DNA of 64,000 bases from Escherichia phage vB_EcoM_VR20: the sequence record NC_028894.1; one strand, written 5' to 3'. Position numbers and translations under genes: made by a program. The notes under the pieces were generated by a model that did not search any database, was not told the DNA's origin, and worked only from the letters and a program-made list of their open reading frames with translations. Positions 15,550 to 62,466 of the stretch are shown in pieces (the stretch's first letter is position 1; the number at the start of each line of letters is the position of its first letter).

Positions 15550-15838
15550 ATTTGCGGAATGAAATGAAACCTGCTGCAGTCATGACAGCTTCTTTCTTAA
15601 CAAATACTGTAATTGCAATTGGTGCTTCAGATTCAAGTTGTCCAGTTACTACACCATTAAAAATATTTTCTGTTTGTTCAGAATTTACAAAGTTTTCAAC
15701 AGGGCGAAGGTCAAACTTCTTATCTTCGCCAAACACGCGCCGCAGTTCATTACCCACTGCGCTGTCAAACTCTTCTGAAGCCGGGATAACATTCTCAACT
15801 ACCAGTTCCTGACCATTAAAGCGAAAAGATGATTTCAT
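15548..15838 (-). CDS. Hypothetical protein (T4 alt.-1 region)
   Basis: Internal ATG with GAGGAAAACAAA Shine-Dalgarno; early promoter GTTTACA-17-TACAAT upstream. Confidence 0.5.
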   Translation of the reverse strand: MKSSFRFNGQELVVENVIPASEEFDSAVGNELRRVFGEDKKFDLRPVENFVNSEQTENIFNGVVTGQLESEAPIAITVFVKKEAVMTAAGFISFRK

Positions 15839-15901
15839 TTTGTTTTCCTCATGTGCAATTGATATGAACATTGTATCGCACTTCCTTGTGCTTGTAAACC
15901 C

Positions 15902-17962
15902 CTACGAAAGGAATTTAGGAGGAATAGCTTCCAAATTAATACAACTAGCAAGAATACCAAGACCTTGATTGACTTTCTTCGTTACCCCAGAGGATGCAAA
16001 CGATGCAAAGTCAACAGATTCTACTGGCTCTTCTGTTTCCTCGCCCTGATAAACGACAAGCTCACCAGTTTCCATCAACACATCACCATCATAGATAACT
16101 GCATTTTCATCCAGTTGGTCCGTAGTCTGGATATCAGCTTCCAGCATTTTGACGTTCGCGTTTCCTTGATACGAAGCATCAGTAATTTTGGTAATCTTAA
16201 CTACAGTCCCACGAGGAAGAATAACTTCCTGCTCGGACGGGTTGCTTGACAATTCACCAGGAACAATTACGTTAATTAAGTCCGCCCCAGAAATTTTCCA
16301 ACCAACATGCATCATTACGTGGTCGCGGCGTGCATCCGGCATATCTGGTAAAACAATTTCGTCATCAGCCTGGAAAGATGTCCCATCACGATAGTCCTGA
16401 TGAACTGCAGCCATAGCAACGTTCGCCACCCAGCCACCAAAGATAATCGGTTTAAACGACGTTGATACATAGTTCCTGAAATAAAATAATTTAGATTTCT
16501 TAATTTTATCAAATGTAGGAACGTTTAAATATTGACCACGCCAAAGAGTTGTATTAGGCGGCAACTTATGTCCAATTTCAAAGGCCGAATCCAATTCCTT
16601 AATTGTTTCGACAACTCTGTCTAGATTTAGGAATTCAGCTTCTTCTTCATAATATTTGCCCATCAAATAATTATTAATATCGGCATAGTTTGCTCCACAA
16701 TAATCTGCAATTGCTTCTCGCTGGCCATAATGGAAACGGTTGTCAGTATACCCTGCTGTGAAATTAAGAGTATTTTCTGATGCTTCTTCGGCAAAGTCTT
16801 TAACTGCAACACGAATGGCGCTTGTGTATTCTTTTTCCCAGAGCGAGGCTGCATAAGTGGCTGCATCCAGGTTAGGAGGAGCATCATTCATTTTTCTTTC
16901 GATAAATGCGGCTTTGCGAAGGTTAAGAATCTCTGCACATGATTCGGCAAAAATCTGCATCTGCTTCATACTGCCAACAGGAGCACGTTTAAGTTCACGA
17001 TGCATACGGTTAAAAATTGGGTCAGAGTCTTCAATACGAATTTCTTCTTTCCAAACACCATTTGCTCGCATAGCCGCATCTGCTGCGCGCATACGAGCCA
17101 TAGTATTCGTTTCGGAAGGTCGAACAAAAATTTCCAGTTCTTCATAATCATCGATAAGTTCTGCCGTAGCCGGTCGACTAAACTTAGCAGCTTCTGCATC
17201 AATTTCGTCCCAGCCATCGGGCACGGAATCACTTGGAGCATACTGGGCTTGTGCAATAGCTCGGCGACTGATTTTAGTTTTCTGGGCAACAGCAGCATCG
17301 GTCTTTTTGTTTGCTGCGTCAATCAGAACTTCGGCTGCGATTTCTTGTTTGGAGACTTGTGCGCCTGTATCTTTATTAGTGAATACATCGCCAACTTTAG
17401 TTTCAACTTTTTGATATTTCTCAGGGACTGGTGGCATACCATCAACCGAAAGCAGGTCAACACCCTTTTTGTACATAATTACATAAGCGTTCTTTTTACC
17501 GAGGCCAGAAGCATTCGGAAGAACATGATAACGCCCGCTGGTTTTCATTTGAATCAGTCGATTCATAATACGAATAACAGCTTGGTCTTGCCCTTTCATT
17601 TTTTTGGATGGGAAACGGAACAAGACTACATCAGGTTTGCCTAGTTTAATGCTTTCCCAGACTGTAACAAAAATCAGGTTAATCGCATCAAGAGGTTTTT
17701 CACCTAGACCACCCTTCAGAGGAACAGCATGGCCATGTGAAGTCCCGGAGAGCAGGAATACCTCGGCAATTGCATCGCCGCGTTTATATTGTTTAACTGT
17801 TTCTTTGCCCGTGAATTGCATCAAACGGGCCATAAGAGAATTGGTCCCAGGAACACCGAATTGCCAAACCTGTGGGACCTTGTATTTCGGATTCATATTA
17901 ATGACAGGATAACCGAAGGCTTCGATATATTTGTCAAAGAGTTCATTTAATTGTTCAGACAT
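15902..17962 (-). CDS. alt: Alt, ADP-ribosyltransferase packaged in the head
   Basis: 686 aa (T4 682); position between gene 54 and gene 30. Confidence 0.75.
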   Translation of the reverse strand: MSEQLNELFDKYIEAFGYPVINMNPKYKVPQVWQFGVPGTNSLMARLMQFTGKETVKQYKRGDAIAEVFLLSGTSHGHAVPLKGGLGEKPLDAINLIFVTVWESIKLGKPDVVLFRFPSKKMKGQDQAVIRIMNRLIQMKTSGRYHVLPNASGLGKKNAYVIMYKKGVDLLSVDGMPPVPEKYQKVETKVGDVFTNKDTGAQVSKQEIAAEVLIDAANKKTDAAVAQKTKISRRAIAQAQYAPSDSVPDGWDEIDAEAAKFSRPATAELIDDYEELEIFVRPSETNTMARMRAADAAMRANGVWKEEIRIEDSDPIFNRMHRELKRAPVGSMKQMQIFAESCAEILNLRKAAFIERKMNDAPPNLDAATYAASLWEKEYTSAIRVAVKDFAEEASENTLNFTAGYTDNRFHYGQREAIADYCGANYADINNYLMGKYYEEEAEFLNLDRVVETIKELDSAFEIGHKLPPNTTLWRGQYLNVPTFDKIKKSKLFYFRNYVSTSFKPIIFGGWVANVAMAAVHQDYRDGTSFQADDEIVLPDMPDARRDHVMMHVGWKISGADLINVIVPGELSSNPSEQEVILPRGTVVKITKITDASYQGNANVKMLEADIQTTDQLDENAVIYDGDVLMETGELVVYQGEETEEPVESVDFASFASSGVTKKVNQGLGILASCINLEAIPPKFLS

Positions 17963-21844: not shown

Positions 21845-22210
21845 TTAGATATCAAATTCATTAAGAACTACATCAAAGATTGCTTCCAGGTGTTCAGGTT
21901 TTGCTTTGTTACCCAGGATATGACGAATCCAAGTTTTAACCAACAGCTTGCGATTAACACCATTCCAGCAAGGATGAGTACCTAAATCACGCTCGCGGAA
22001 ATCATCATCTAAAGCAATTTTAAAGGTTGAACCAGTCATAGTGATTGAAAGAGTGATACCATTTTCAAATCGCATATAAACGTAGTTAGGAGTCATGTAC
22101 TGTTCAATTTCGCACACTGAACCATTTTTATGTTTCCACAGGCAAATAACTTCAGAAGAACCTGGGATGCAGTTAGAAACATATTTGCGTTCAAAGTTGA
22201 TGTAGTTCAT
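21845..22210 (-). CDS. Hypothetical protein
   Basis: 121 aa; ATG preceded by the conserved GGAGAATAAA leader and promoter/stem-loop cassette. Confidence 0.55.
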   Translation of the reverse strand: MNYINFERKYVSNCIPGSSEVICLWKHKNGSVCEIEQYMTPNYVYMRFENGITLSITMTGSTFKIALDDDFRERDLGTHPCWNGVNRKLLVKTWIRHILGNKAKPEHLEAIFDVVLNEFDI

Positions 22211-22281
22211 TTTATTCTCCAGTTGTTTTCATTTGTTGGTACAGGTCTATAATATCATAACCTGTACCAAAGTAAACTGTT
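22211..22281 (-). promoter_or_regulatory. Early promoter with stem-loop (PeSL-like cassette)
   Basis: Minus strand GTTTAC-17-TATTAT; 8-bp stem ggtacagg/cctgtacc encloses the -10. Confidence 0.45.
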
Positions 22282-22650
22282 TTATGCGACTTTAATCCAA
22301 TTATCTAAATTTAATTCACCCTTAGCTTTCATTTTTTCAATCAAATCATCAGCAGTGGTGCGACCATTTTGATACCATGTAACATCTTCAGAATAACCAG
22401 TTTCTTCATCTTCATAGGTCTTACAACGAATCTTACCAAGAATCAAAGTTTTCAGTTCGTAGGTATCACCAGTAAAAAAGTTTGTTACCATAATTTTCCA
22501 GGAGAAGTCATCAGAAGGACCTTCTGGAGTCATGCAAGAAACGAATTCAAATTGTTCTTTATACAAGTGCCATTGCATTTCTTTAGTTTCAATGGCTTTG
22601 TAGCCGTCGTGGTCTTTACCTTTGATGTATGAGTTAAGATTGATTTTCAT
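22282..22650 (-). CDS. Hypothetical protein
   Basis: 122 aa; ATG preceded by the conserved leader repeat. Confidence 0.55.
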   Translation of the reverse strand: MKINLNSYIKGKDHDGYKAIETKEMQWHLYKEQFEFVSCMTPEGPSDDFSWKIMVTNFFTGDTYELKTLILGKIRCKTYEDEETGYSEDVTWYQNGRTTADDLIEKMKAKGELNLDNWIKVA

Positions 22651-22734
22651 TTTATTCTCCAGTGTTTTATTGTGTAACTCAGTATGGAATCATTATGCAC
22701 TGGACCAACCCTGTTGTAAACCTTTTATGGAAAT
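22651..22734 (-). promoter_or_regulatory. Early promoter plus conserved leader repeat
   Basis: TTTACA-17-CATAAT, then leader TCCATACTGAGTTACAC..CACTGGAGAATAAAATG shared with 38309, 57450 and 61474. Confidence 0.5.
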
Positions 22735-22758
22735 AAAAAAGGGACTCCGAAGAGTCCC
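22735..22758 (-). terminator. UUCG hairpin terminator
   Basis: A-run then gggactc-cgaa-gagtccc directly after the stop of the 53-aa ORF. Confidence 0.55.
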
Positions 22759-25708: not shown

Positions 25709-26250
25709 CAGATTGTCTCCTGTTTTACTTGTTTAACGATAGAAGCTTTTGTGATATCGCCCTTGATAATATAACAATCTTCTGCAGTACCACGGTTTAA
25801 CAGACGCTCTGCCTCGCCTTCCGCATATTCTTTTGACACATGACGAGAGTTAATCTCAATCTTGCCATTTTTAACCACAAGCAATTTCCAAACTGATGCA
25901 AGTTTTACTGGCACAGGTTCAACTTCTGGCTTAACGCCAACTTCCGCTTGGATGAAATAATCAAATTCATCAGACAATGGACCAGCAGAAACAAACATTG
26001 CCCCATGATGCCTGTTTTCTGCACCAGAAATTTTTGCCAAATCCACAAAATTCTTTTCATCAATCAAACGAATCTCACAAACTTTTCTTCCACCGCTAGC
26101 AGTATCAGGGACAATCTTAACTTCAAACGGAGTCATACCGATGTATTTGGCAATTTGGTAATTAGCTGCCCAGCCTCCGGCAATAAACTGTTTTTTGGCA
26201 TTTTCAGATGCGAACTTGTAAAACTTGCCTTCTTCAAAGAAATTACTCAT
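25708..26250 (-). CDS. Hypothetical protein, member of the GKFY..AKKQFIAG paralog family
   Basis: 180 aa; N-terminal motif shared with the ORFs at 38642 and 39359; early promoter upstream. Confidence 0.55.
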   Translation of the reverse strand: MSNFFEEGKFYKFASENAKKQFIAGGWAANYQIAKYIGMTPFEVKIVPDTASGGRKVCEIRLIDEKNFVDLAKISGAENRHHGAMFVSAGPLSDEFDYFIQAEVGVKPEVEPVPVKLASVWKLLVVKNGKIEINSRHVSKEYAEGEAERLLNRGTAEDCYIIKGDITKASIVKQVKQETI

Positions 26251-26279
26251 TTTGTTTTCCTCATGTGTTGATGAAATTC

Positions 26280-26309
26280 ATTATACACCATCCGTGGTGA
26301 AAGTAAACA
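26280..26309 (-). promoter_or_regulatory. T4-type early promoter GTTTAC-17-TATAAT
   Basis: Minus strand GTTTACTTTCACCACGGATGGTGTATAAT, then GAGGAAAACAAA Shine-Dalgarno. Confidence 0.55.
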
Positions 26310-26310
26310 C

Positions 26311-26622
26311 TTAAATTGCTTCGACAACTACCGTTTGTTTCTGGAAGTCCATTTTGCATGAAATGGCCAAAATGTGGTTATCAATTTTAAACGGAACAAT
26401 TGCAAATGCTGCACCAGGCGTGAGTTGAACAGTGATTGCATCAACTGCATCCGGGAACATGATTTCCAGAATAGCAGACAAACGACCATGCACCTTTAGT
26501 TCAGTCGACACGTCGACGCTTTCGTATAGATAATCAGATACAATCTGACTAAAAACTACTTTAACAATTTCAGAATACGTAGGAAACATTTTCTTTTCTC
26601 GCTTAGTTATTGGGGTATCCAA
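26311..26622 (-). CDS. Hypothetical protein
   Basis: 103 aa, ATG start. Confidence 0.5.
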   Translation of the reverse strand: MDTPITKREKKMFPTYSEIVKVVFSQIVSDYLYESVDVSTELKVHGRLSAILEIMFPDAVDAITVQLTPGAAFAIVPFKIDNHILAISCKMDFQKQTVVVEAI

Positions 26623-28289: not shown

Positions 28290-28768
28290 ACACCAAGCTC
28301 CTTATAAAGTTCTTCGCGACAGGTTTTAAGGATTTTACCAGTTTCATAAGCTGCACTTTCAGAAACATCACCAAGTGCAGCGGCAGATTGCATTTGTCCA
28401 TGGCGTTTAGCTGCATATTCAAAACTTTTTACTAGCTCACGAATACGTTCTTTTTCATTGTATTCTTCAATGAATTCAGGGTATTCCCAAACTGGGCGCA
28501 TCATACGATACCAATGCTGAATAGTAATATAATTACTTCCATCCAGATTAATAATTTGCGAAGGCTTAATAGCGCCCGGAGCATAAAAAGTTACCTGTCT
28601 TACTACATCAATACCGTCCACAATAGCCCAAGCAAAATCGAAAGTTGCCTTCTTTTCAATTGGTGTACTTGCACAGGACCCTAATTTTAAGAGCTTTTGT
28701 AATGCAGGGGATTTAACACCTGAAATGTATTCAGGATTAGCCACAAAACTGTTATCGCGTAATGACAT
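28286..28768 (-). CDS. Hypothetical protein
   Basis: Internal ATG with GAGGAAAATATT Shine-Dalgarno gives 160 aa; promoter/stem-loop cassette directly upstream. Confidence 0.5.
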
Positions 28769-28775
28769 AATATTT

Positions 28776-28840
28776 TCCTCAAATATTTTATAATCCGTGG
28801 GAGCATTATACTCTGCTCCCATGAGTTTGTACACTACTTT
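28776..28840 (-). promoter_or_regulatory. Early promoter with stem-loop (PeSL-like)
   Basis: TGTACA-17-TATAAT; stem gggagca/tgctccc encloses the -10. Confidence 0.45.
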
Positions 28841-28937
28841 CCAAAAAGACCCTGAACACATAAAGTGGCCGCAATTCCAAAACAAAAACAGAATGCACCA
28901 AATCTAACAATATCCCAACCAAGGCTACAGGTCTCTA

Positions 28938-30085: not shown

Positions 30086-30319
30086 TTAGTAGCGGTTGTA
30101 ACCCCGGGGGCCAAAAGAGTTGGCACCCAGACGTTCATCTTTCTTTTTGGCTCTTGCTCTAAACCCAGAATCACCTGTTTGAGCTTTCAGTTCTTTTAAC
30201 AATTTGGCCTTCAGGTCAGTAATGAAACCAATCCGGCGGTCTCCCTTGTAGACATAGATTCCATCATTTCTGTCGCCATATGCCTTTGTAACTCTGTCAT
30301 TTGAAATTAAGTTTAACAT
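30086..30319 (-). CDS. Small protein paralogous to the Alc N-terminal domain
   Basis: 77 aa; ..LISNDRVTKAYGDRNDGIYVYKGDRRIGFITDLKAKL aligns with Alc residues 1 to 45; basic tail. Confidence 0.5.
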   Translation of the reverse strand: MLNLISNDRVTKAYGDRNDGIYVYKGDRRIGFITDLKAKLLKELKAQTGDSGFRARAKKKDERLGANSFGPRGYNRY

Positions 30320-30390
30320 GTTTTGGTCCTCATCAGTAGTTGATGGAACCATTATGTATAGAAAGAAGGGGCTTGTACACCCCTTTTTTA
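30320..30390 (-). promoter_or_regulatory. Terminator/promoter cassette downstream of rnlA
   Basis: Hairpin gggg-tgtacaag-cccc overlaps the -35; TGTACA-17-CATAAT; leader CATCAACTACTGATGAGGACC. Confidence 0.45.
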
Positions 30391-35433: not shown

Positions 35434-35499
35434 GTTTTCCTCTGTTATAAAATGGGGTCATGCTTATACTAACACATGACCCCTGGAGCGGAATCGTAT

Positions 35500-35799
35500 T
35501 TATGCGCCCAAATCCTCGAGCGAAAAGGTGTCTTTGAAAAGTTTGTTAACAACCAGAGCGATGATATCCCCATGACATGACTTTGGTTTGCATGTACAAG
35601 CTAATCGCATTCCGCGAAGGGTTTCAAGGTGTTCTCTTTTGATTTCACCCGATTTAATCTTTGATATGAAATATTCTTTAAAGTTCTTTATGTTTTCTTC
35701 TCGGGTACCATCTTTATATGGGTTTCCCCACATGGTACCCCGTTGAATATTCACATCAAAGTCGGATTGATATTTGTTAACAACCCGACAGGCTTTCAT
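35500..35799 (-). CDS. Conserved hypothetical protein, DUF4326-like (nrdA.1 region)
   Basis: 99 aa; MWGNPYK and CxCxxxxCHGD resemble the DUF4326 pattern as recalled. Confidence 0.45.
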   Translation of the reverse strand: MKACRVVNKYQSDFDVNIQRGTMWGNPYKDGTREENIKNFKEYFISKIKSGEIKREHLETLRGMRLACTCKPKSCHGDIIALVVNKLFKDTFSLEDLGA

Positions 35800-35860
35800 A
35801 GTAGGAAGTTAAGCCCGACCATTATGGCCAGAAATAAAATACCGGCAATTTGAATTTTCA

Positions 35861-36057
35861 TTATACCTCGACAATAAACCAGATAGACCGATTGAAATCA
35901 TCATATTCATACGATTTAATCACACGCATAACATAAAGTTCTTTACCCTGGACAAAAATCGTTGTTTTCTCTTTAGGCAGTTCATCGAGACTTATATTCA
36001 TTTTTTCAAACAGCACCTCATTGGTGCCGTATCTATTGTTTACTATACGAATATTCA

Positions 36058-38068: not shown

Positions 38069-38308
38069 TCACGCTTTCTTAGCGACTTTCCAGTCAGCTT
38101 TAAATTGGTCAACGTCAGAGTGATGAATCCAGAAACCAGATGAGCTACCATCTTCATAAAGAGGACAACCATCACACTCATCTTTCCAACCCATTGCACA
38201 CAAAGTTTCTTCAGCTTTTTCTAGAGCTTCTGGATTGTTACCCTGGATTGTGAAATACCATTTGCCTTTAACTTCTGAATCTTTGATGCTCTCACGTTGT
38301 AATTTCAT
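38069..38308 (-). CDS. Hypothetical protein
   Basis: 79 aa, acidic with cysteine pairs; preceded by the conserved leader repeat. Confidence 0.5.
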   Translation of the reverse strand: MKLQRESIKDSEVKGKWYFTIQGNNPEALEKAEETLCAMGWKDECDGCPLYEDGSSSGFWIHHSDVDQFKADWKVAKKA

Positions 38309-38400
38309 TTTATTCTCCAGTGTTTTAGTTGTTAACTCAGTATGGGACCATTATGTCATAGCCCCATTTGGTTGTACACTACTTTTTAAATTTTATCAAG
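38309..38400 (-). promoter_or_regulatory. Early promoter plus conserved leader repeat
   Basis: TTGTACACTACTTTTT upstream element, -10 CATAAT, leader ..CCCATACTGAGTTAACAACTAAAACACTGGAGAATAAAATG. Confidence 0.5.
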
Positions 38401-38641: not shown

Positions 38642-39010
38642 TTAGACCTCAAAAGTTGCTTTAATCAGTGCAATGACTTCTGCGGCATTTTTGTGATTGA
38701 CTTGCACATGAATGGTTTGGGTATCAACATCAGGAGCATCACTATCAACTTCCAGGAAGTGACAGAATTCCCATTCAGCGAGTTCAAAGTACTCATCAGC
38801 GTCACACATACTATTCAGGATGGTACCATCTTTCATTTCAACTTTTTCAACAAAATAATCACCTTCAATATAACACATATCCAGGATTTTGAAGGAATTG
38901 CCGTGTTGTTCCATCAACTTGACCATGCACGAATTATCATCAGGACTACCAGCGATGAATTGTTTTTTAGCAGCAGGGTCTAATACGTAAAATTTACCAG
39001 TTTCCATCAT
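38642..39010 (-). CDS. Hypothetical protein, GKFY..AKKQFIAG paralog family
   Basis: Start MMETGKFY.. with GAGGAAATTAAA Shine-Dalgarno; 8-bp hairpin gggaacat/atgttccc upstream. Confidence 0.5.
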   Translation of the reverse strand: MMETGKFYVLDPAAKKQFIAGSPDDNSCMVKLMEQHGNSFKILDMCYIEGDYFVEKVEMKDGTILNSMCDADEYFELAEWEFCHFLEVDSDAPDVDTQTIHVQVNHKNAAEVIALIKATFEV

Positions 39011-39068
39011 TTTAATTTCCTCATTTTTGTTGAGGGAACATATTATCATGTTCCCGTTGGTTTGTATA

Positions 39069-39296
39069 CTAAGCTTGAATCAAGCCCATATAAAATTCAG
39101 CGTCTTCCGGGTGCATCCCTTCGCAATATTCATTTTGCATAAAGCGAGTAAGGTCTTCAAGAGGACCTTGAACTTCAATTTGAATACTAAAGAATTGGGT
39201 ATCTTTAATGTAAGTCATACACAAAGAAGGATACCGATTACGAATAACTTCGTAAGTGTATTCAAAATCAACGATATCAATATTAACCTTAGCCAT
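39069..39296 (-). CDS. Hypothetical protein
   Basis: 75 aa acidic; GAGGAAAATAAA Shine-Dalgarno; hairpin ggtctat..atagacc upstream. Confidence 0.5.
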
Positions 39297-39358
39297 TTTA
39301 TTTTCCTCATGTAGTTGATAGGTCTATAATAACATAATCATAGACCCGTTGTAAACTG

Positions 39359-39722
39359 CTATTTGAAGGCTTTTTGTAGAAGTTCAATGATTTGGTCGAC
39401 GTTATTAGCATCTACAACACAATTAATAGAAACCGCCCCTGAAGGTGTTTTTGTATAACTGGAGTATTCACGGAAGCAATAAAACTCTTCTTCACTAAGT
39501 TCAAAATAATCATCACCCATACCATCATCATTATAGATTGCACCATTAGCACAAATTATTTCGGTTACATAATCATAGCCGTCTGCACTTGATATTGATT
39601 TAACTTCAAAACCAATCACCATTTTCTTGGATGATGTCGACCATACTAGCATTCGATGAACTAATATCAATGAAAGATTTAATACGATGTGGATTGAACT
39701 CATATTTTTTGCCAATTTCCAT
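39359..39722 (-). pseudogene. Frameshifted paralog of the 38642 gene: 38-codon frame A (39606..39722) plus 80-codon frame B (39359..39605)
   Basis: Both halves align in register with the paralog; the frames break at UGG-UUU-UGA over the A4 run at 39608..39611. Confidence 0.45.
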
Positions 39723-39803
39723 TTTTATTTCCTCAGTGGTTATCAGTAGTTGATGGAATCATTATGCACCGGGTCAAGGGACTTGTACACTACTTTTTGA
39801 AAA
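39723..39803 (-). promoter_or_regulatory. Promoter cassette, near-duplicate of the one at 57450
   Basis: TGTACA-17-CATAAT; leader CATCAACTACTGATAACCACTGAGGAAATAAAAATG. Confidence 0.5.
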
Positions 39804-39826
39804 TAAAAAAGGGACCCGAAGGTCCC
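39804..39826 (-). terminator. UUCG hairpin terminator downstream of gene 32
   Basis: A-run then gggacc-cgaa-ggtccc. Confidence 0.6.
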
Positions 39827-39832
39827 CTTATA

Positions 39833-40804: not shown

Positions 40805-41473
40805 TCAAAGTGATTGAAGCGTTATTTGACAGTTTTTAACGGTCTCGATGAACAATTTACGAGCTTCAAGAGAATCTATATTTAAGATTTTCTTATAGGC
40901 ATTTAGTTTGGTCGAATACTTTTCCCAAACCAAGTCGTTAGTCTGTTCATCATGTTTATTTATAATACCTAAAAATGAATCAAGCAAACAAAACGTTTCA
41001 AATGAGATAACATTCGATTGGAGAAGTTTGAAAATATAACTTGTATTCACTTTAGTATTATACTCGAAAATCTCTTGGAGCGATTTGACTTCGACTTTCT
41101 TACTGAAGTAATAGATGTTCTTTATATCATCTTCGTATACTTGTCTAATTCTTTTAAGTCTGCCAATGTATTCTCTATAAAATATCAGAGCATCGGCATC
41201 ACTTATATCGCCTATCCATGCATCCTGGTTTGCAACCAGGTTTGACATGAATATTAACGTTAATTCTTTGAGAGTGTACTTATCGCTAAGCTTTTCGAAA
41301 AAATACTTATCGCGACGTTTTTGATAAGCACTATCGGAGATTCGCATGGTCCAGTTATATTTGATAATATCATAACGACCCGAAAAATGCTGTTTGATGG
41401 ATAAGTACAGTTGGTATACTGATTTACCATTTATATATCGGTTGTTATTTGGAGGCATGCGAATCGTAATCAT
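40805..41473 (-). CDS. 59: Helicase loader gp59
   Basis: 222 aa (T4 217); strong recalled identity (KYDIIKYNW.MR.SD.AYQKRRDKYFF). Confidence 0.88.
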   Translation of the reverse strand: MITIRMPPNNNRYINGKSVYQLYLSIKQHFSGRYDIIKYNWTMRISDSAYQKRRDKYFFEKLSDKYTLKELTLIFMSNLVANQDAWIGDISDADALIFYREYIGRLKRIRQVYEDDIKNIYYFSKKVEVKSLQEIFEYNTKVNTSYIFKLLQSNVISFETFCLLDSFLGIINKHDEQTNDLVWEKYSTKLNAYKKILNIDSLEARKLFIETVKNCQITLQSL

Positions 41474-54310: not shown

Positions 54311-54582
54311 AATCCGGAGGTATACATCATCAGATATCGGTGTATATCTTCGAATCCTTCGTTAAATTGTTCAATGATTTGTTCAATTTCATCTTCAGAT
54401 AAACTTTTAAACAACTTGTTAAACGATACATTGTTTAACTCATTACCATTCTCATTCCTTAATCCCAACTCATTCAAAAACGCGATAAACACATCACGCT
54501 TCATCGTAATATCTTCCCGGTCGGTTTTAATCAAAATAGATGTAACGGTAACAATTTCAGAAACGATTTCAAATTTAGTCAT
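54307..54582 (-). CDS. asiA: Anti-sigma-70 protein AsiA
   Basis: 91 aa (T4 90); ..VTSILIK..REDI....FIAFLNE.G and FNEGFE..HRYL.MYT match recalled T4 AsiA. Confidence 0.82.
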   Translation of the reverse strand: MTKFEIVSEIVTVTSILIKTDREDITMKRDVFIAFLNELGLRNENGNELNNVSFNKLFKSLSEDEIEQIIEQFNEGFEDIHRYLMMYTSGF

Positions 54583-54622
54583 TTTAATTTACTCAAGTAT
54601 TCAATAAGACATTCAATTATTC

Positions 54623-54805
54623 AGTAAGGATATTGTACTATTATTCCTCTGGGTTGTACACATGATTTTCCATCTGTACAACATATGTCTGATACATATC
54701 TTCAATTGGTTCCTGGAACTTAAAATCAGCTCCAAGGAATTCCTCAAAGCAAGCTTGCTCGCGTGTACGCTGACCAGTAACGGTGTTCTCTAAGTTATGA
54801 CTCAT
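54623..54805 (-). CDS. Small hypothetical protein, 60 aa
   Basis: ATG overlaps the arn stop (ATGA); open frame found by hand, not in the ORF track. Confidence 0.3.
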
Positions 54806-55098
54806 ATGTTATTCCCCATTTCAATATAATCTTCTAGACCAAAATCATCGATTTCTTCTTGGATTTCTCTTAAAATTTGTTCTTCATCTAAGCCAGCGCC
54901 AAAGGTCACTTTAACATAACCGGGACGTTCACTAGAGAACCGAATTGTGTATTCCGGTTGGATATAGCCAAAACTACTATCCAAATCACAAAGAATTTCT
55001 GCATAGATTTCGTCGCCGACATCAGCATGAATTTTAAAAAGTTCATCAATGAGAATAACTAGTTCAGTTGCTTTGTACGTATGGAGTTTAGTAATCAT
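54802..55098 (-). CDS. arn: Putative Arn, anti-restriction nuclease
   Basis: 98 aa, strongly acidic, next to asiA as in T4; not sequence-verified. Confidence 0.45.
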   Translation of the reverse strand: MITKLHTYKATELVILIDELFKIHADVGDEIYAEILCDLDSSFGYIQPEYTIRFSSERPGYVKVTFGAGLDEEQILREIQEEIDDFGLEDYIEMGNNI

Positions 55099-57233: not shown

Positions 57234-57449
57234 TTATCCCTTAATAGATTTCATGTAATTTGATGCATATGATTGTACCACAGTACGTTTCATATGGGAA
57301 GTAGAAACAATCACATCAATCGCTTGTTTACGTTCTTCTTTAGAATTCGCCAGTTTGAACATGTCAAAGTAATAATAGCAAGCTTCTTTGTTAGATTTGA
57401 ATTTGATGTTGATGTATTCTTGACCTTCATTCTGTTGTGCAGTAAACAT
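57234..57449 (-). CDS. Hypothetical protein (motA.1 position)
   Basis: 71 aa from the internal ATG with GGAGAATAAA Shine-Dalgarno. Confidence 0.5.
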   Translation of the reverse strand: MFTAQQNEGQEYINIKFKSNKEACYYYFDMFKLANSKEERKQAIDVIVSTSHMKRTVVQSYASNYMKSIKG

Positions 57450-57540
57450 TTTATTCTCCAAAGTTTTTGTGATTCAGTGTGTAACTCAGTATGGAATCAT
57501 TATGCATCAGGTCAAGGGAATTGTACACTACTTTTTAAAA
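57450..57540 (-). promoter_or_regulatory. Promoter cassette, near-duplicate of the one at 39723
   Basis: AAAAAGTAGTGTACAATTCCCTTGACCTGATGCATAATGATTCCATACTGAGTTACAC. Confidence 0.5.
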
Positions 57541-57541
57541 T

Positions 57542-57563
57542 AAAAAAGGACCCCGAAGGGTCC
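57542..57563 (-). terminator. UUCG hairpin terminator
   Basis: A-run then ggaccc-cgaa-gggtcc. Confidence 0.55.
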
Positions 57564-57661
57564 TAGTCTTTATCTATCTTATTGCCAATAAACATACCAA
57601 CAATCACACCCGCGATTGCCGCGAAAACACAAAGTAATGCAAACTCCACTCCAAAACTCAT
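57563..57661 (-). CDS. Hydrophobic micro-ORF, 32 aa
   Basis: MSFGVEFALLCVFAAIAGVIVGMFIGNKIDKD; ATG overlaps the gene 52 stop; below the track cutoff. Confidence 0.35.
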   Translation of the reverse strand: MSFGVEFALLCVFAAIAGVIVGMFIGNKIDKD

Positions 57662-59436: not shown

Positions 59437-59886
59437 TTAATAGCTCTGCAGAATGAATTTAAAGTTATCAGCAAGCATGCGATTCATTTCTGAAAGGGTC
59501 TGGCAATCAGAACTATGCGAGCGAGTGAACGCCATCGCAATTTGACCTTTACCATAACCAGTTGTCAGAGGTTTCATTTTAGAAACCGGGACAAACAGGA
59601 CTTCATAGATAACCCCATTGTTCGCCATTGTGCGAGACAGTTGTGAACGCTGTTTGCGGATGTGACTTAATACAGTGTCAAACCCTTGTTGTGAACGTTG
59701 GTTACCAACATAAAAACGTGCAGCAACAATACGTGATTCGCCTTCACCTTTGACCACGAAATAAAAACCTGGTTGGGTAATAGCTTCTTTAGTTGGACGA
59801 CCCGCCACATAATTACCATTATGGATGTAAGCAATAGTGGTAGCGCCAGCATTCAGTACGTCACGACGAGTCATGTAAGTAGTCAT
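59437..59886 (-). CDS. ndd: Nucleoid disruption protein Ndd
   Basis: 149 aa (T4 151); [21 protein letters not shown] and [13 protein letters not shown] match recalled T4 Ndd. Confidence 0.85.
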
Positions 59887-59960
59887 ATTAATTTCCTCAG
59901 TAAGTTAAAGTTTTGTGCTCCAGTGGGGTCATTATACTCTGACCCCAAGAGTTTGTACAC
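59887..59960 (-). promoter_or_regulatory. Early promoter with stem-loop upstream of ndd
   Basis: TTGTACA-17-TATAAT; stem ggggtca/tgacccc encloses the -10. Confidence 0.45.
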
Positions 59961-60304
59961 TATTTTTGAAGCTGTTCTAAAATAAATCCGCTGGTGTAAA
60001 GGCTTGCATTATACAGGCGGTCAAGAGACAATGAATCCAATCCATAAGCTTCACGAATTGCATTGATAGCACTTTCGTAACTTGTATAATAAACATCGCG
60101 ATAATCACGGTCCATAGTCATGCGGAACTTAATAAATTTATAGAAACCAGTTTCAGGGTCCTGATAGAATGCAAATTCTGCAGACATCAAATTTTTAAGG
60201 TGAACAACTTTTGTGCCACCCGAATAACTTAAATCAAAGGCTTCTGATACGCTAATTTGTTTAAAGAACATAATGTTGCGATTACCAAAAAAGACTTTAG
60301 ACAT
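59960..60304 (-). CDS. Hypothetical protein (ndd.x region)
   Basis: 114 aa; GAGGAAATCATT Shine-Dalgarno. Confidence 0.5.
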   Translation of the reverse strand: MSKVFFGNRNIMFFKQISVSEAFDLSYSGGTKVVHLKNLMSAEFAFYQDPETGFYKFIKFRMTMDRDYRDVYYTSYESAINAIREAYGLDSLSLDRLYNASLYTSGFILEQLQK

Positions 60305-60769: not shown

Positions 60770-60787
60770 AATATTTTCCTCAGTAAA

Positions 60788-60934
60788 TTAAAGAACTTCT
60801 TCAATTTGGATGTATTTGCTATAACCTTCCTCGATGAGGATATCACGAGCGCAGTCAGCACTAATATAAGCATTAAAGCTAAGAGTTTTAATCACTTTAC
60901 CGTGCAGCTTTACTTTATAAATTCGGTTACCCAT
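60788..60934 (-). CDS. Hypothetical protein
   Basis: 48 aa from the internal ATG with GAGGAT Shine-Dalgarno. Confidence 0.4.
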   Translation of the reverse strand: MGNRIYKVKLHGKVIKTLSFNAYISADCARDILIEEGYSKYIQIEEVL

Positions 60935-60944
60935 AATATTATCC

Positions 60945-61061
60945 TCAAAAGAAATAGTTAAAGTAAACACGCACATGGTCAATCATAAAAACAATTGGGA
61001 AAATGCTCAGGACAACAAACAGTACAAACATGTTCCAAATGGCTTTAAGTAACTTTTTCAT
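60945..61061 (-). CDS. Hydrophobic micro-ORF, 38 aa
   Basis: MKKLLKAIWNMFVLFVVLSIFPIVFMIDHVRVYFNYFF; GGAGATGATT Shine-Dalgarno; promoter upstream. Confidence 0.35.
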   Translation of the reverse strand: MKKLLKAIWNMFVLFVVLSIFPIVFMIDHVRVYFNYFF

Positions 61062-61206
61062 AATCATCTCCAGTAGTTGATAGGTTCATTATACTACAAC
61101 CACCGGAGATGTACACTCTTTTATGTAAGTTTCATTAATAATAAACTAAAACAAACACAAATTACTGGGATACACAACATCCAGATAAGACACCACATTT
61201 TGCTGC

Positions 61207-61473
61207 TCAAAATATCACCTCCTTTATCTCAATCAATCCCCTGTACAATGCAGTGCGGAGGTCATAAAGAATATCTATGCCATCAACATTATCCAGCTTG
61301 CCATCAATAAGCTTTTCCAAATCTTCCTTTGATGCAACCAATGGGCGAAGAAATTTACAATCAGAAAGAGATAACTCTGTAGTAACATCATCACCATCAC
61401 CTGACGCATCATACATAACGGCAACAACCATACCTGTAACTTTGTGTTTGGCGTAGTATAATTTAATATCCAT
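61207..61473 (-). CDS. Hypothetical protein
   Basis: 88 aa from the internal ATG; preceded by a promoter/stem-loop cassette and GGAGAAAAA Shine-Dalgarno. Confidence 0.5.
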   Translation of the reverse strand: MDIKLYYAKHKVTGMVVAVMYDASGDGDDVTTELSLSDCKFLRPLVASKEDLEKLIDGKLDNVDGIDILYDLRTALYRGLIEIKEVIF

Positions 61474-61550
61474 TTTTTCTCCAGTTGTTTGGTAACTCAG
61501 TATGGAATCATTATACATAGACTCCATACTGATGTACACTATTTTTTAAT
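61474..61550 (-). promoter_or_regulatory. Early promoter with stem-loop plus conserved leader
   Basis: TGTACA-17-TATAAT; 9-bp stem cagtatgga/tccatactg encloses the -10. Confidence 0.5.
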
Positions 61551-61825
61551 TAATTGTGCATTTGTTCTTTAACTTCTTTGTATGCGCCAACTGCATTCAC
61601 GACCCCAGTAAAATCTGCAGTCCCACGATAGAGATAGAAAGCGATTTCAGTCAAGTGGTAAACTTCAAATTCTGAAAGATAAACGATAACGTCATAATAG
61701 GCAACTTGACCCTGGACTTCATTGAATACTACATCAAAAATTTCATGGGTTGGAAAATTGATGTTGTTGTTTTTGAGTGCTTGAATGAGAATTTGTTTGA
61801 TGTGATGAGTAGTAACGTGTTCCAT
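61550..61825 (-). CDS. Hypothetical protein
   Basis: 91 aa from the internal ATG; its Shine-Dalgarno lies inside an 8-bp hairpin. Confidence 0.45.
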   Translation of the reverse strand: MEHVTTHHIKQILIQALKNNNINFPTHEIFDVVFNEVQGQVAYYDVIVYLSEFEVYHLTEIAFYLYRGTADFTGVVNAVGAYKEVKEQMHN

Positions 61826-61872
61826 GATAATGTCCTCATTTGTTGGTGTGAGGACATTATTACACAGTTGGT

Positions 61873-62466
61873 TCAGCTTGTAAACCGGTGATAGGGAAAT
61901 TTTTCTTCTGAACAAGAACGGAGGTACCAACCATCCCCTTGTGACTTCTGCACAAGACCAGACTCAGGAACGAAAGCACCAGGCCCAGCAAGGAATTTTG
62001 GTTTAAATCTATAACCTTTGATAGTCTCTTTAACATTGAACATAATCATAAGGTCAGCAAGCTTGTGTTGCATAAAAGGACCAAGATTAACCCCATAACC
62101 ATGTGGATAATCGCCCTGGTGGCCAGTATGCACTGATATCCATTTGGAACCAGACTGATGGGTCTTGACTTCGATTCTCACACCTTCCTTCGAAACTACA
62201 TCAAATGCAAAGGAATACGGATTATCGTAATCTTCATCACCACCGCATAAAAAGCCGGAGGTCCATTTGGCAATAGCTTGTTCAGCCATTGTAGCTACCA
62301 TACATCTTTGCATGACTTGCTCACGGTCCTGACCTGGGTCTTTACGCAATGAATACCTGGCAGTGTCTACAATCTTTTGCAGGGATTCAGGGGTTAAGTC
62401 TTCTTTTGTATAAAGAAAGGAGGGCATCTTTTTCAGATGCTCCCATGTTTTACTCTTCTGAATCAT
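61873..62466 (-). CDS. Hypothetical protein (in the region where T4 has denB)
   Basis: 197 aa from the internal ATG with AAAGGATGA Shine-Dalgarno; identity to endonuclease IV not verifiable. Confidence 0.4.
   Translation of the reverse strand: MIQKSKTWEHLKKMPSFLYTKEDLTPESLQKIVDTARYSLRKDPGQDREQVMQRCMVATMAEQAIAKWTSGFLCGGDEDYDNPYSFAFDVVSKEGVRIEVKTHQSGSKWISVHTGHQGDYPHGYGVNLGPFMQHKLADLMIMFNVKETIKGYRFKPKFLAGPGAFVPESGLVQKSQGDGWYLRSCSEEKFPYHRFTS

What the first reader, a model, noticed from the sequence alone, without database searches (positions are those of the whole stretch)
38309..38400. Family of conserved promoter-plus-leader repeats in front of small ORFs
At least seven minus-strand genes are preceded by TGTACA/GTTTAC, 17 bp, (C/T)ATAAT and then a conserved transcribed leader in two subtypes: TCCATACTGAGTTAC..CTGGAGAATAAA (22651, 38309, 57450, 61474) and CATCAACTACTGA (30320, 39723, 61062). 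Conservation past the -10 into the 5' UTR is more than promoter function needs and suggests an RNA-level role or recombination substrate.
Basis: seen in the sequence. Interest (0 to 1): 0.4.

Follow-up and report, generated by a model that had tools for sequence, protein, structure and literature searches.

The report
T4-type early promoter cassettes (PeSLs)
The repeats are the standard early-gene expression cassettes of a T4-like coliphage (host-type promoter, short unstructured leader, ribosome-binding site). This is a known kind of element that also serves as a junction for swapping small genes, so the finding is real but largely ordinary.

Summary
The window comes from a Gaprivervirus, a T4-like coliphage of the SP18/VR7 group. 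It carries 14 strong early-type promoters plus two weaker ones, all on the minus strand, each in front of a small ORF. Their similarity continues past the -10 when the hexamers are ignored.

The conserved stretch after the -10 has four parts:
- A G-N2-CCC discriminator and an A+1 start.
- An 11-13 nt box at the start of the transcript. One form, AUCAACUACUGA, is shared with T4 itself. The other, AUACUGAGUUA, is specific to this genus and appears to differ by a 5-nt indel.
- A G-poor leader predicted to be unstructured.
- A Shine-Dalgarno box. In three of four subtype-A copies it is exactly GGAGAAUAAAA, the published cleavage site of the T4 RegB/S1 endoribonuclease.

About half the promoters also carry a covariation-supported hairpin enclosing the -10 and the start site. 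Others have a canonical terminator hairpin upstream.

Comparison with five relatives places gene insertions and replacements at the cassette edges. All of this matches the published PeSL (promoter-early stem-loop) cassettes and T4 early promoters. I file it as a new member of a known kind. The function of the start-of-transcript box remains inferred.

The parts
38306..38392 (-). Focal cassette (subtype A) in front of the frd.1 homologue (79 aa, ATG 38308). A-tract 38392-38379; -35 TGTACA 38378-38373; -10 CATAAT 38355-38350; discriminator GGTCCC 38349-38344; predicted +1 A 38343; start-of-transcript box ATACTGAGTTA 38343-38333; SD/RegB box GGAGAATAAAA 38318-38308. Hairpin arms 38367-38358 and 38351-38342 enclose the -10.
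   Evidence: hairpin -14.6 kcal/mol, z -3.8
22648..22758 (-). Subtype A cassette in front of the gp30.8 homologue (122 aa). Intrinsic terminator GGGACTC-TTCG-GAGTCCC plus T-run 22758-22735; -35 TTTACA 22720-22715; -10 CATAAT 22697-22692; box ATACTGAGTTA from 22685; GGAGAATAAAA 22660-22650; ATG 22650.
   Evidence: In SP18 an extra ORF (gp30.6A) is inserted between the hairpin and the promoter.
57447..57564 (-). Subtype A cassette in front of a 71-aa ORF upstream of motA. Terminator hairpin 57564-57547 plus T-run; -35 57527-57522; -10 CATAAT 57504-57499; box from 57492; GGAGAATAAAA 57459-57449; ATG 57449.
61471..61552 (-). Subtype A cassette in front of an 88-aa ORF. -35 61538-61533; -10 TATAAT 61515-61510; 12-bp hairpin with arms 61531-61520 and 61509-61498, which reaches +6 of the leader; SD GGAGAAAAAAT; ATG 61473.
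   Evidence: -16.7 kcal/mol, z -5.9
39720..39827 (-). Subtype B cassette in front of the frd.2a homologue. Terminator hairpin plus T-run 39827-39805; -35 39788-39783; -10 CATAAT 39766-39761; box ATCAACTACTGA from 39754; SD GAGG; ATG 39722.
30317..30390 (-). Subtype B cassette in front of a 77-aa ORF. Hairpin GGGG-tgtacaag-CCCC 30383-30368 overlaps the -35; -10 CATAAT 30356-30351; box ATCAACTACTGA from 30344; ATG 30319.
61059..61128 (-). Subtype B cassette in front of a 38-aa membrane-like ORF. -35 61115-61110; -10 TATAAT 61093-61088; box ATCAACTACTGG from 61081; SD GGAG; ATG 61061.
59884..59972 (-). Early promoter cassette of ndd (149 aa). -35 59959-59954; -10 59936-59931; hairpin UGGGGUCA/UGACCCCA with arms 59947-59940 and 59931-59924; ATG 59886.
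   Evidence: z -3.3. The orthologous JS98 ndd promoter has entirely different but still complementary arms.
28766..28846 (-). Early promoter cassette in front of a 160-aa ORF that SP18 lacks. -35 28833-28828; -10 28810-28805; hairpin arms 28821-28814 and 28805-28798 (GGGAGC/GCUCCC, a compensatory double change relative to the 59931 copy); ATG 28768.
   Evidence: (z -4.8)
39294..39367 (-). JS98/T4-like cassette. -35 TTTACA 39355-39350; -10 TATTAT 39331-39326; hairpin arms 39347-39337 and 39330-39320; box TCAACTAC; ATG 39296 of a 75-aa ORF that SP18 lacks.
   Evidence: z -5.1
39008..39065 (-). Weak or degenerate cassette. TATACA, then GATAAT at 39047-39042, which sits as the exact loop of a perfect 8-bp inverted repeat GGGAACAT/ATGTTCCC (39055-39048 and 39041-39034). 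This is followed by TCAAC, SD GAGG and ATG 39010.
   Evidence: It scores below the PWM threshold.
22208..22276 (-). Cassette in front of the gp30.7 homologue. -35 TTTACT 22276-22271; -10 TATTAT 22254-22249; hairpin about 22267-22239; GGAGAATAAAA 22220-22210; ATG 22210.
   Evidence: (z -3.3)
54580..54672 (-). asiA early promoter cassette. -35 54660-54655; -10 TACAAT 54637-54632; ATG 54582.
   Evidence: It is 96% identical to the JS98 asiA promoter.
61823..61890 (-). Early promoter cassette in front of a 91-aa ORF. -35 TTTACA 61884-61879; -10 AATAAT 61861-61856. The leader hairpin GUCCUC...GAGGAC includes the SD. ATG 61825.
26248..26320 (-). Early promoter cassette in front of a 180-aa ORF. -35 TTTACT 26307-26302; -10 TATAAT 26285-26280; leader CATCAACACATGAGG; ATG 26250.
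15836..15905 (-). Early promoter cassette in front of a 96-aa ORF. -35 TTTACA 15898-15893; -10 TACAAT 15875-15870; leader ATCAATTGCACATGAGG; ATG 15838.

Best explanation
Each repeat is an early-gene expression cassette of a T-even-type phage. It is the Gaprivervirus version of T4 early promoters, i.e. of PeSLs (promoter-early stem-loops).

**Anatomy, 5' to 3' on the minus strand**
- One stem-loop. It is either a canonical GC/TTCG terminator with a T-run upstream, or a hairpin overlapping the -35, or a hairpin enclosing the -10 and start site.
- An A-tract.
- The -35 element G(T/G)TACA.
- A 17-bp spacer.
- The -10 element (C/T)ATAAT.
- A discriminator G-N2-CCC and the start A+1.
- An 11-13 nt start-of-transcript box.
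- A G-poor unstructured leader of 20-43 nt.
- GGAG or GAGG with an A-rich spacer, then the ATG of a small early ORF.

**Inferred mechanism (by homology with T4)**
- Host sigma-70 RNA polymerase fires these promoters immediately after infection.
- The discriminator, start site and start-of-transcript box are part of the extended consensus that makes them very strong.
- The open leader and strong SD give high translation.
- In subtype A the SD is GGAGAAUAAAA, so the phage RegB nuclease with ribosomal protein S1 would cut it. That would switch off these messages within minutes.
- The stem-loops would stop, attenuate or stabilise transcripts arriving from upstream.

**Recombination role.** The same roughly 80-110-nt cassette is repeated 10 or more times per genome. 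Its edges therefore act as short-homology junctions for inserting, deleting and replacing small ORFs.

**Shown here:** sequence anatomy, copy number, covariation of the stems, lack of leader structure, match to the RegB consensus, and breakpoints at cassette edges. **Inferred:** transcription start sites, RegB cleavage, terminator activity, and what the start-of-transcript box does.
For: **Identity of the phage and its gene set**
- The window is 94-97% identical to Gaprivervirus genomes.
- SP18 has the T4 gene order alt-30-cd-pseT-nrd-td-frd-32-59 ... asiA-motA-52-ndd-denB.
- VR7 is annotated with regB, alt and modA/B.

**Promoter family**
- 14 PWM hits, all on the early-gene strand, with 0 in shuffles.
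- An independent sigma-70 scan finds the same sites, and a terminator scan finds the hairpin at 57564-57547.
- All are followed by an SD and the ATG of ORFs of 38-180 aa.

**Relation to T4**
- T4's own early promoters (denB, motA, asiA, frd region) read TACTAT-ACAACTA-TCAACTACTGATAC. The T4 denB promoter also has TTTGGAGAATAAAATG.

**Genus-specific subtype A**
- A 53-nt query from the -10 to the ATG finds 346 places in 40 phage records.
- Gaprivervirus genomes hold 8-13 places each. Other phages hold one weak match each.
- ATACTGAG is absent from the T4 and JS98 stretches that were examined.

**Stems**
- On 31 promoters not selected for pairing, native spacer/downstream pairs fold better than chimeric ones (-4.8 vs -2.8 kcal/mol). 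None of 20000 permutations reach the native value.
- Fold z-scores are -3.3 to -5.9.
- 96.8% of cells are paired, and 5 of 7 pairs show compensatory changes. Slid controls give 41-57%.
- The sense strand folds better than the antisense in 24 of 32 cases.

**Published descriptions**
- PeSL stem-loops in five positions, including 'overlapping the -10 box', and with G-T pairs marked, are already described (PMC2839356).
- The PeSL definition with SD and ATG at the 3' end is (PMC4122927).

**Leader and RegB**
- Leaders are predicted to be unstructured.
- GGAGRAYARAA occurs 4 times against 0.36 expected. All four are exact GGAGAATAAAA in SD position.
- The consensus comes from PMC1702504.

**Recombination junctions**
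- At four promoters the cassette is 91-100% identical to SP18, while only 23-58% of the next 240 nt of CDS matches.

**Selection, measured among six Gaprivervirus genomes (extra alleles per site)**
- -35 and -10: 0.04-0.05.
- UP region, discriminator, SD box: 0.07.
- Start-of-transcript box: 0.09.
- Spacer 0.13 and mid-leader 0.16.
- Third codon positions: 0.19.
Against: - No transcript data are available. Start sites, early timing, RegB cleavage and terminator activity are all inferred from T4.
- regB itself is outside the window and was seen only in the relative VR7.
- The start-of-transcript box is significantly more conserved than synonymous sites (p = 0.0016). It is not significantly more conserved than the spacer plus mid-leader (p = 0.14), so selection on it specifically is only moderately supported.
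- Its 100% identity in 11 subtype-A copies is partly circular, because copies were recognised by that motif.
- Hairpins that enclose the -10 have no U-run after them, so they are not canonical intrinsic terminators.
- About a third of the promoters have no convincing stem at all.
- Breakpoint counts include the same event seen in several related genomes.
- The sequences in the covariation alignment A2 were picked because they pair in one register.
Confidence: 0.85

Rival explanations
1. The leader conservation has no function of its own. The cassettes are recent copies kept alike by duplication and gene conversion (concerted evolution), and only the -35, -10 and SD matter.
For: - Subtype A is confined to one genus.
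- Against JS98, the coding sequence is better conserved than the cassette at 38350 (92% vs 69%), 61510 and 39761. The cassette has therefore been replaced by a genus-typical version.
- Recombination junctions lie inside the cassettes.
Against: - Within subtype A the spacer is only 43% identical and +12..+22 only 51%, while +1..+11 is invariant. Gene conversion would not skip the spacer.
- The subtype-B box is identical in T4 and in this genus at non-orthologous genes, although the discriminators differ.
- In orthologous comparisons the box changes at less than half the synonymous rate.
Confidence: 0.25
2. The leader is a structured cis-regulatory RNA (riboswitch, attenuator or sRNA-like element) in the 5' UTR.
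For: The only support is the length of the conserved stretch after the -10.
Against: - All seven leaders, folded from the predicted +1 to the ATG, have MFE 0 to -1.6 kcal/mol, no better than shuffles.
- There is no Rfam match in the whole window.
- Leader length varies from 20 to 43 nt, with indels in the middle.
Confidence: 0.03
3. The start-of-transcript box (+1..+12), on DNA or at the RNA 5' end, is a recognition site for a phage factor. One candidate is the still unknown factor that shuts early promoters off.
For: - The box is invariant in 11 copies and shared with T4.
- Reviews state that early-promoter shut-off is not understood (PMC2988021, PMC3014915).
- A site at +1..+12 would be well placed for a repressor.
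Against: - The box has no dyad symmetry.
- Two or three different box variants coexist, and some early promoters lack them.
- Constraint is moderate rather than extreme.
- No candidate protein was identified.
- Initial transcribed sequences are known to affect promoter escape at very strong promoters (my own knowledge of the T5 N25 work). That is a simpler explanation.
Confidence: 0.1
4. They are MotA/AsiA-dependent middle promoters rather than early promoters.
For: The phage group encodes motA and asiA.
Against: - All copies have a -35 element (TGTACA or TTTACA) at 17 bp from the -10, plus an A-tract.
- They lack a Mot box (TGCTT near -30) as defined in PMC2988021 and PMC1524935.
Confidence: 0.02
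5. They are copies of a small mobile element (MITE-like) or targets of a homing endonuclease.
For: - They are multicopy, intergenic, and next to variable ORFs.
- Homing endonuclease genes do come and go in this region: segG and an intron-like endonuclease are present in SP18 and absent from the window.
Against: - The cassettes have no terminal inverted repeats or target-site duplications.
- They all have one orientation and always sit an exact SD distance from an ATG.
- The junctions show shared short homology (16-22 nt overlaps) typical of homologous exchange.
- The endonuclease indels are not at cassettes.
Confidence: 0.03

Closest known systems
PeSLs (promoter-early stem-loops) of T4-type phages RB49/phi1, T4/PST and KVP40/nt-1 (Arbiol et al. 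2010, PMC2839356; Comeau et al. 2014, PMC4122927)
   Same: - A composite intergenic cassette: AT-rich region, sigma-70-like -35/-10 at 17 bp, one stem-loop in a variable position (upstream, over the -35, between the boxes, or over the -10), with G-T pairs in the stems, then SD and ATG.
- Multicopy, lying in front of small variable ORFs.
- Indels between close relatives sit at the cassettes.
   Different: - The genus differs and so does the consensus. The -35 is the palindromic TGTACA, versus TTGACA in RB49 and TTTACW in T4/PST. The -10 is often CATAAT.
- A genus-specific invariant start-of-transcript box (AUACUGAGUUA) is not described in the text I read.
- Many junctions here lie in the SD-ATG box rather than in the stem-loop.
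- Promoter activity, terminator activity and mini-circle formation were shown experimentally for RB49/phi1 and are not shown here.
Bacteriophage T4 early promoters (Pe). Reviewed by Hinton 2010 (PMC2988021). Logos for relatives are in Nolan et al. 2006 (PMC1524935). The consensus of promoters and ribosome-binding sites by Liebig and Rueger 1989 is cited from my own memory.
   Same: - UP-like A-tract, GTTTAC-type -35, TATAAT-type -10.
- 'Additional regions of consensus' beyond the hexamers.
- C-rich -3 to -1.
- The same start-of-transcript sequence TCAACTACTGA and the same GGAGAATAAAATG box occur in T4 itself.
   Different: - T4 mostly uses GTTTAC and TACTAT/TATAAT with an ACAACT or TACCCT discriminator.
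- This genus uses GTGTACA, CATAAT and GATTCC or G-N-TCCC.
- Subtype A of the box was not found in the T4 or JS98 stretches examined.
RegB/S1 endoribonuclease target sites of T4 early mRNAs (Durand et al. 2006, PMC1702504; Uzan and Miller 2010, PMC3014915)
   Same: - The 11-nt single-stranded site GGAGRAYARAA, with T4 optimum GGAGAAUAAAA, lying in the SD of early genes.
- Three subtype-A leaders and one neighbouring gene carry the exact optimum in leaders predicted to be unstructured.
   Different: - Cleavage was not tested here.
- Subtype B and most other cassettes use GAGG or GGAA-type SDs. By the same papers these are poor RegB substrates, so RegB sensitivity would apply to only part of the family.
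Hairpin promoters of coliphage N4 virion RNA polymerase (from my own knowledge; used only as a contrast)
   Same: Early promoters that contain a short conserved inverted repeat at the start region.
   Different: - N4 promoters are recognised as extruded DNA hairpins by a phage-encoded polymerase and lack sigma-70 hexamers.
- Here full sigma-70 elements are present.
- The stem position varies between copies, and many copies lack a stem at the -10.

Membership tests
PeSL cassette | Sigma-70-like early promoter (-35 and -10, about 17 bp apart) with an AT-rich region upstream | tested here: met
   14 PWM hits with 16-18 bp spacers and an A-tract (AAAAAGTAG) before the -35
PeSL cassette | A stable stem-loop associated with the promoter, in one of several positions (upstream, over the -35, between the boxes, over the -10) | tested here: met
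   - Upstream terminators at 22692, 39761 and 57499.
- A stem over the -35 at 30351.
- Stems enclosing the -10 at 61510, 59931, 38350, 28805, 39326 and 22249.
- About a third of the promoters have no clear stem.
PeSL cassette | Shine-Dalgarno sequence and start codon of a downstream (often orphan) ORF at the 3' end | tested here: met
   All 14 are followed by GGAG, GAGG or GAG and the ATG of ORFs of 38-180 aa
PeSL cassette | Association with insertions, deletions and replacements between closely related phages | tested here: met
   - Window vs SP18, TH40, TH15, TH57 and TH22: homology breaks at the terminator hairpin (-66 to -98) or at the SD-ATG box (ATG-10 to ATG+15).
- The cassette is conserved where the downstream CDS is not, at four promoters.
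PeSL cassette | Demonstrated promoter and terminator activity; formation of mini-circles by exchange between neighbouring cassettes | not testable with these tools
   This needs reporter assays and inverse PCR on phage DNA, as in PMC2839356
T4-type early promoter (Pe) | GTTTAC-like -35, TATAAT-like -10, UP-like A-tract, on the strand of the early genes | tested here: met
   All copies are on the minus strand, which carries alt...denB.
T4-type early promoter (Pe) | Extended consensus around the start site shared with T4 | tested here: met
   - Subtype B TCAACTACTGA is identical to the T4 denB and motA early promoters.
- C at -3 to -1 matches what is reported for RB69, RB49 and 44RR.
- Subtype A was not found in the T4 stretch examined.
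T4-type early promoter (Pe) | Active immediately after infection with unmodified host polymerase, without phage protein synthesis | not testable with these tools
   This needs transcript mapping in chloramphenicol-treated infections
RegB/S1 target site | [quoted passage not shown] | tested here: met
   - Exact GGAGAATAAAA at 22660-22650, 38318-38308, 57459-57449 and 22220-22210. That is 4 hits against 0.36 expected.
- The 61510 copy (GGAGAAAAAAT) departs at positions 7 and 11.
RegB/S1 target site | The site is single-stranded | tested here: met
   Leaders are predicted to be unstructured. This is a prediction only.
RegB/S1 target site | The phage encodes RegB, and the site is cut in vivo | tested here: inconclusive
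   regB is annotated in VR7 of the same genus but lies outside this window. Cleavage cannot be tested here.
MotA-dependent middle promoter | Mot box (TGCTT) centred near -30 in place of a -35 element | tested here: not met
   All copies carry T(G/T)TAC(A/T) at the -35 position. The definition is from PMC2988021 and PMC1524935.
Known structured RNA family (Rfam) | Match to a curated covariance model at its gathering score | tested here: not met
   0 matches in the 64-kb window

The most novel reading that the evidence does not exclude
The invariant 11-13 nt at the very start of the transcript could be a signal in its own right, rather than part of promoter strength. The two forms are AUACUGAGUUA and AUCAACUACUGA, and the second is conserved from T4 to this genus. 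Two candidate roles are an operator or 5'-end tag read by a phage factor that shuts early promoters off, or one that sorts early mRNAs. Separately, the hairpins that enclose the -10 carry G-U pairs and are better on the sense strand. They may act as RNA in read-through transcripts, in processing or stabilisation, rather than as terminators.
Probability: 0.12. Interest if true: 0.6.

Novelty: new member of a known kind. Interest (0 to 1): 0.22.

Why it matters
As it stands, the result mainly annotates this phage group. It gives a precise map of 16 early expression cassettes, most of them in front of small early genes, many without a known function. It shows that the PeSL architecture and its role as a gene-swapping junction extend to a fourth lineage of T4-like phages.

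It also makes a testable prediction. Subtype-A genes, with a perfect RegB site, should be switched off faster than subtype-B genes.

The only part that could matter more widely is the start-of-transcript box shared with T4. If it proved to be a recognition signal, it would bear on the unsolved question of how T-even phages shut off early transcription.

Tried and rejected
- **14-nt scan of IMG/VR.** An exact scan with the subtype-A motif returned mostly chance hits in unrelated contigs. Only the contig that is evidently VR26 (171,541 bp) was relevant, so the scan was wasted.
- **T4 promoter annotation.** The T4 GenBank record lists no promoter features. I therefore had to find T4 promoters by pattern.
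- **Missing literature.** The T4 genome review (PMC150520) is not held. No open paper on VR7 promoters was found. The classical T4 consensus is therefore cited partly from memory.
- **One stem-loop per cassette.** I tested whether cassettes with an upstream terminator and cassettes with a hairpin round the -10 are mutually exclusive. The five clear TTCG-loop terminators all lack a strong -10 stem, but the overall table is not significant (Fisher p = 0.41). I treat this as a trend only.
- **A new kind of promoter hairpin.** I first thought the hairpin round the -10 might be new. Arbiol et al. 2010 already describe stem-loops 'overlapping the -10 box' with G-T pairs, so this was dropped.
- **Leader RNA structure.** Rejected.
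- **Extra motif matches.** The other 3-mismatch matches of the subtype-A motif (43886, 46656, 53072) and three further ATACTGAG 8-mers (60403, 49173, 43322) lie in coding sequence without promoter elements. They are chance matches.
Full report
**What the window is.** A 5-kb stretch round the finding is 94-97% identical to about 30 Escherichia, Shigella and Yersinia phages of the genus Gaprivervirus (Straboviridae, Tevenvirinae; SP18, VR7, VR25, TH44). The annotated relative SP18 shows the T4 gene order on the minus strand: alt, 30, cd, pseT, nrdAB, td, frd, 32, 59, rnh. The tail-fibre genes 34-38 and t follow on the plus strand. Then asiA, motA, 52, ndd and denB lie on the minus strand again. 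The finding therefore sits in the early-gene regions of a T4-like phage.

**Checking the observation.** The subtype-A motif is exact at three places and has two mismatches at the focal copy. Eight matches with up to 3 mismatches compare with 1.6 expected. The subtype-B motif is exact at two places and has two mismatches at the third. GTGTACA-N18-ATAATG occurs 11 times on the minus strand against 2.2 expected.

A two-block weight matrix finds 14 sites on the minus strand, none on the plus strand and none in shuffled sequence. Two weaker cassettes, at 22249 and 39045, were found by eye and by a relaxed pattern. Every site is followed at 20-43 nt by an SD and the ATG of an ORF of 38-180 aa.

With the hexamers set aside, the 25 nt after the -10 are 19-23/25 identical within subtype A and 16-21/25 within subtype B. 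Unrelated pairs score about 3-13/25.

**Anatomy of the conserved stretch.** I took 36 promoters of this genus from the window plus 78 kb of VR7, chosen only by their -35/-10. In this set G at -6, C at -3 to -1, A at +1 and T at +2 carry about as much information as -35 positions. C at -3 to -1 was already noted for RB69, RB49 and 44RR (PMC1524935).

After the start site come one of two boxes, AUACUGAGUUA (A) or AUCAACUACUGA (B). By eye, A appears to be B without the five bases CAACU.

T4 itself has box B. Its denB and motA early promoters read TACTAT-ACAACTA-TCAACTACTGATAC, and the T4 denB leader ends in TTTGGAGAATAAAATG. Most predicted JS98 (Dhakavirus) early promoters, about seven of those found, read GATACTATAGACCTA-TCAAC.

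Box A was found only in Gaprivervirus. A 53-nt query finds 8-13 copies per genome there and only single weak matches in other phages. ATACTGAG is absent from the T4 and JS98 stretches examined.

**No RNA structure in the leader itself.** Folded from the predicted +1 to the ATG, all seven leaders have a minimum free energy of 0 to -1.6 kcal/mol and are no more structured than shuffles. Rfam has no match in the window.

**Hairpins.**
- Three copies (22692, 39761, 57499) have a canonical GC-stem/TTCG-loop terminator with a T-run just upstream.
- One copy (30351) has a stem over the -35.
- Six copies (61510, 59931, 38350, 28805, 39326, 22249) have a 7-12-bp stem whose loop is the -10 region. Its 3' arm is the discriminator plus the first 1-6 transcribed bases. 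Fold z-scores are -3.3 to -5.9.

On 31 promoters not selected for pairing, native spacer/downstream combinations fold better than chimeric ones, and none of 20000 permutations reach the native value. In nine copies that share one register, 96.8% of cells pair and 5 of 7 pairs have changes on both sides. Slid controls give 41-57%. That set was chosen because it pairs, so the permutation test is the fairer one.

The orthologous ndd promoters of this phage and JS98 have completely different but complementary arms. The sense strand folds better than the antisense in 24 of 32 cases because of G-U pairs.

I first took this for something new. However, Arbiol et al. [quoted passage not shown]

**The 3' box.** Durand et al. 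2006 define the RegB/S1 target as 11 nt of single-stranded RNA. Its consensus is GGAGRAYARAA and the T4 optimum is GGAGAAUAAAA. RegB cuts early mRNAs in their SD and inactivates them.

The window has four matches to the consensus against 0.36 expected. All four are the exact optimum and all lie in SD position. Three of them are subtype-A leaders. VR7 of the same genus is annotated with regB.

Subtype B and most other cassettes use GAGG or GGAA-type SDs, which the same paper reports as poor substrates. The two subtypes may therefore differ in how fast their messages are switched off. This is an inference.

**Recombination.** Against SP18 the window shows several small-ORF indels whose junctions lie in cassette parts.
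- SP18 gp30.6A sits between the terminator hairpin and the promoter of the 22692 cassette, with hairpin and T-run repeated on both sides.
- Window-only ORFs at 28768-28290, 39296-39069 and 60932-60782 are joined at repeated SD-ATG boxes.
- At 61510, 61088, 39326 and 28805 the cassette is 91-100% identical to SP18, while only 23-58% of the next 240 nt matches.
- With four further genomes (TH40, TH15, TH57, TH22), homology again starts or stops at -66 to -98 (the hairpin) or at ATG-10 to ATG+15.

Against JS98, coding sequences are often better conserved than the cassettes in front of them. Cassettes are thus replaced by the genus-typical version. All this fits the PeSL model of modular shuffling.

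**Is the start-of-transcript box selected?** Among six Gaprivervirus genomes, the extra alleles per site are as follows.

| Region | Extra alleles per site |
|---|---|
| -35 | 0.04 |
| -10 | 0.05 |
| UP region, discriminator, SD box | 0.07 each |
| Start-of-transcript box | 0.09 |
| Spacer | 0.13 |
| Mid-leader | 0.16 |
| Third codon positions | 0.19 |

The box differs from synonymous sites (p = 0.0016) but not significantly from spacer plus mid-leader (p = 0.14).

Within 11 subtype-A copies the box is invariant while the spacer is 43% identical. That comparison is partly circular, because copies were recognised by the box.

Together with the identity of box B in T4, I conclude that the box is under constraint. 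The most likely reason is that it is part of the extended early-promoter consensus that Hinton's review calls 'additional regions of consensus'. A separate function is not excluded.

**Verdict.** The feature is real. The closest description is the PeSL, or T4 early-promoter, cassette, and all sequence-level defining features of that family are met. Activity could not be tested. It is a new member of a known kind, with a genus-specific start-of-transcript box and a clear link of subtype A to the RegB consensus as the only additions.

Noticed in passing
window 39606-39722 (minus strand), T-run near 39609: The frd.2a homologue behind the 39761 cassette stops after 38 aa. One extra T in a T-run (TTTT here, TTT in SP18) shifts the frame, and the remaining 82 codons continue in the +1 frame. 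This is either a homopolymer sequencing error or a recent pseudogene.
   Followed up: partly
window 61826-61855 (minus strand): The leader of the 61856 cassette has its own hairpin, GUCCUC...GAGGAC, which sequesters the Shine-Dalgarno GAGG. The other leaders are open. This may be a translational control of the 91-aa ORF.
   Followed up: no
window about 35452-35481 (minus strand), upstream of nrdA: A 9-bp inverted repeat GGGGTCATG/CATGACCCC encloses TGTTAGTATAAG. SP18 has a closely similar repeat. It has the same 'hairpin round a -10-like box' layout, but no early-type -35. It may be a middle promoter or a processing site.
   Followed up: no
window 35503-36049: A stretch of about 550 bp between td and nrdA contains small ORFs, one of them a Cys/His-rich ORF of about 90 aa. 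SP18 has only 53 bp here. It looks like another small-gene insertion at a translationally coupled junction.
   Followed up: no
window 54817-55095 and 60782-60932: Two further window-only small ORFs relative to SP18 are joined by 14-15-nt overlaps at SD-ATG boxes (GGGGAAT..ATATG and GAGGA(A/T)AATATTATG). Short conserved translation-initiation boxes therefore act as junctions even away from promoters.
   Followed up: partly
window 27066 and 40824-40835, compared with L001 11295-11994 and 24494-25114: SP18 carries an intron-like endonuclease gene and segG at these two points, and the window lacks both. This is homing-endonuclease presence/absence, unrelated to the cassettes.
   Followed up: partly
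L011 (IMG/VR contig of 171,541 bp, the same length as VR26) and L118 14726-15613 (VR7 64.7-65.6 kb): Three subtype-A cassettes stand in tandem at about 370-520-bp spacing, each in front of one small ORF. This is the arrangement from which PeSL mini-circles were reported in RB49/phi1.
   Followed up: no
all cassettes, e.g. window 38373-38378: The -35 hexamer of this genus is the palindrome TGTACA, usually as AGTAGTGTACAA. T4 has GTTTAC and RB49 has TTGACA. It matches the sigma-70 consensus in only 4 of 6 positions yet is the most conserved part of the cassette.
   Followed up: partly
window 57547-57564: The terminator hairpin of the 57499 cassette scores as a terminator on both strands (AGGACCC-TTCG-GGGTCCT). 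Only the minus-strand reading has a clean T-run.
   Followed up: no
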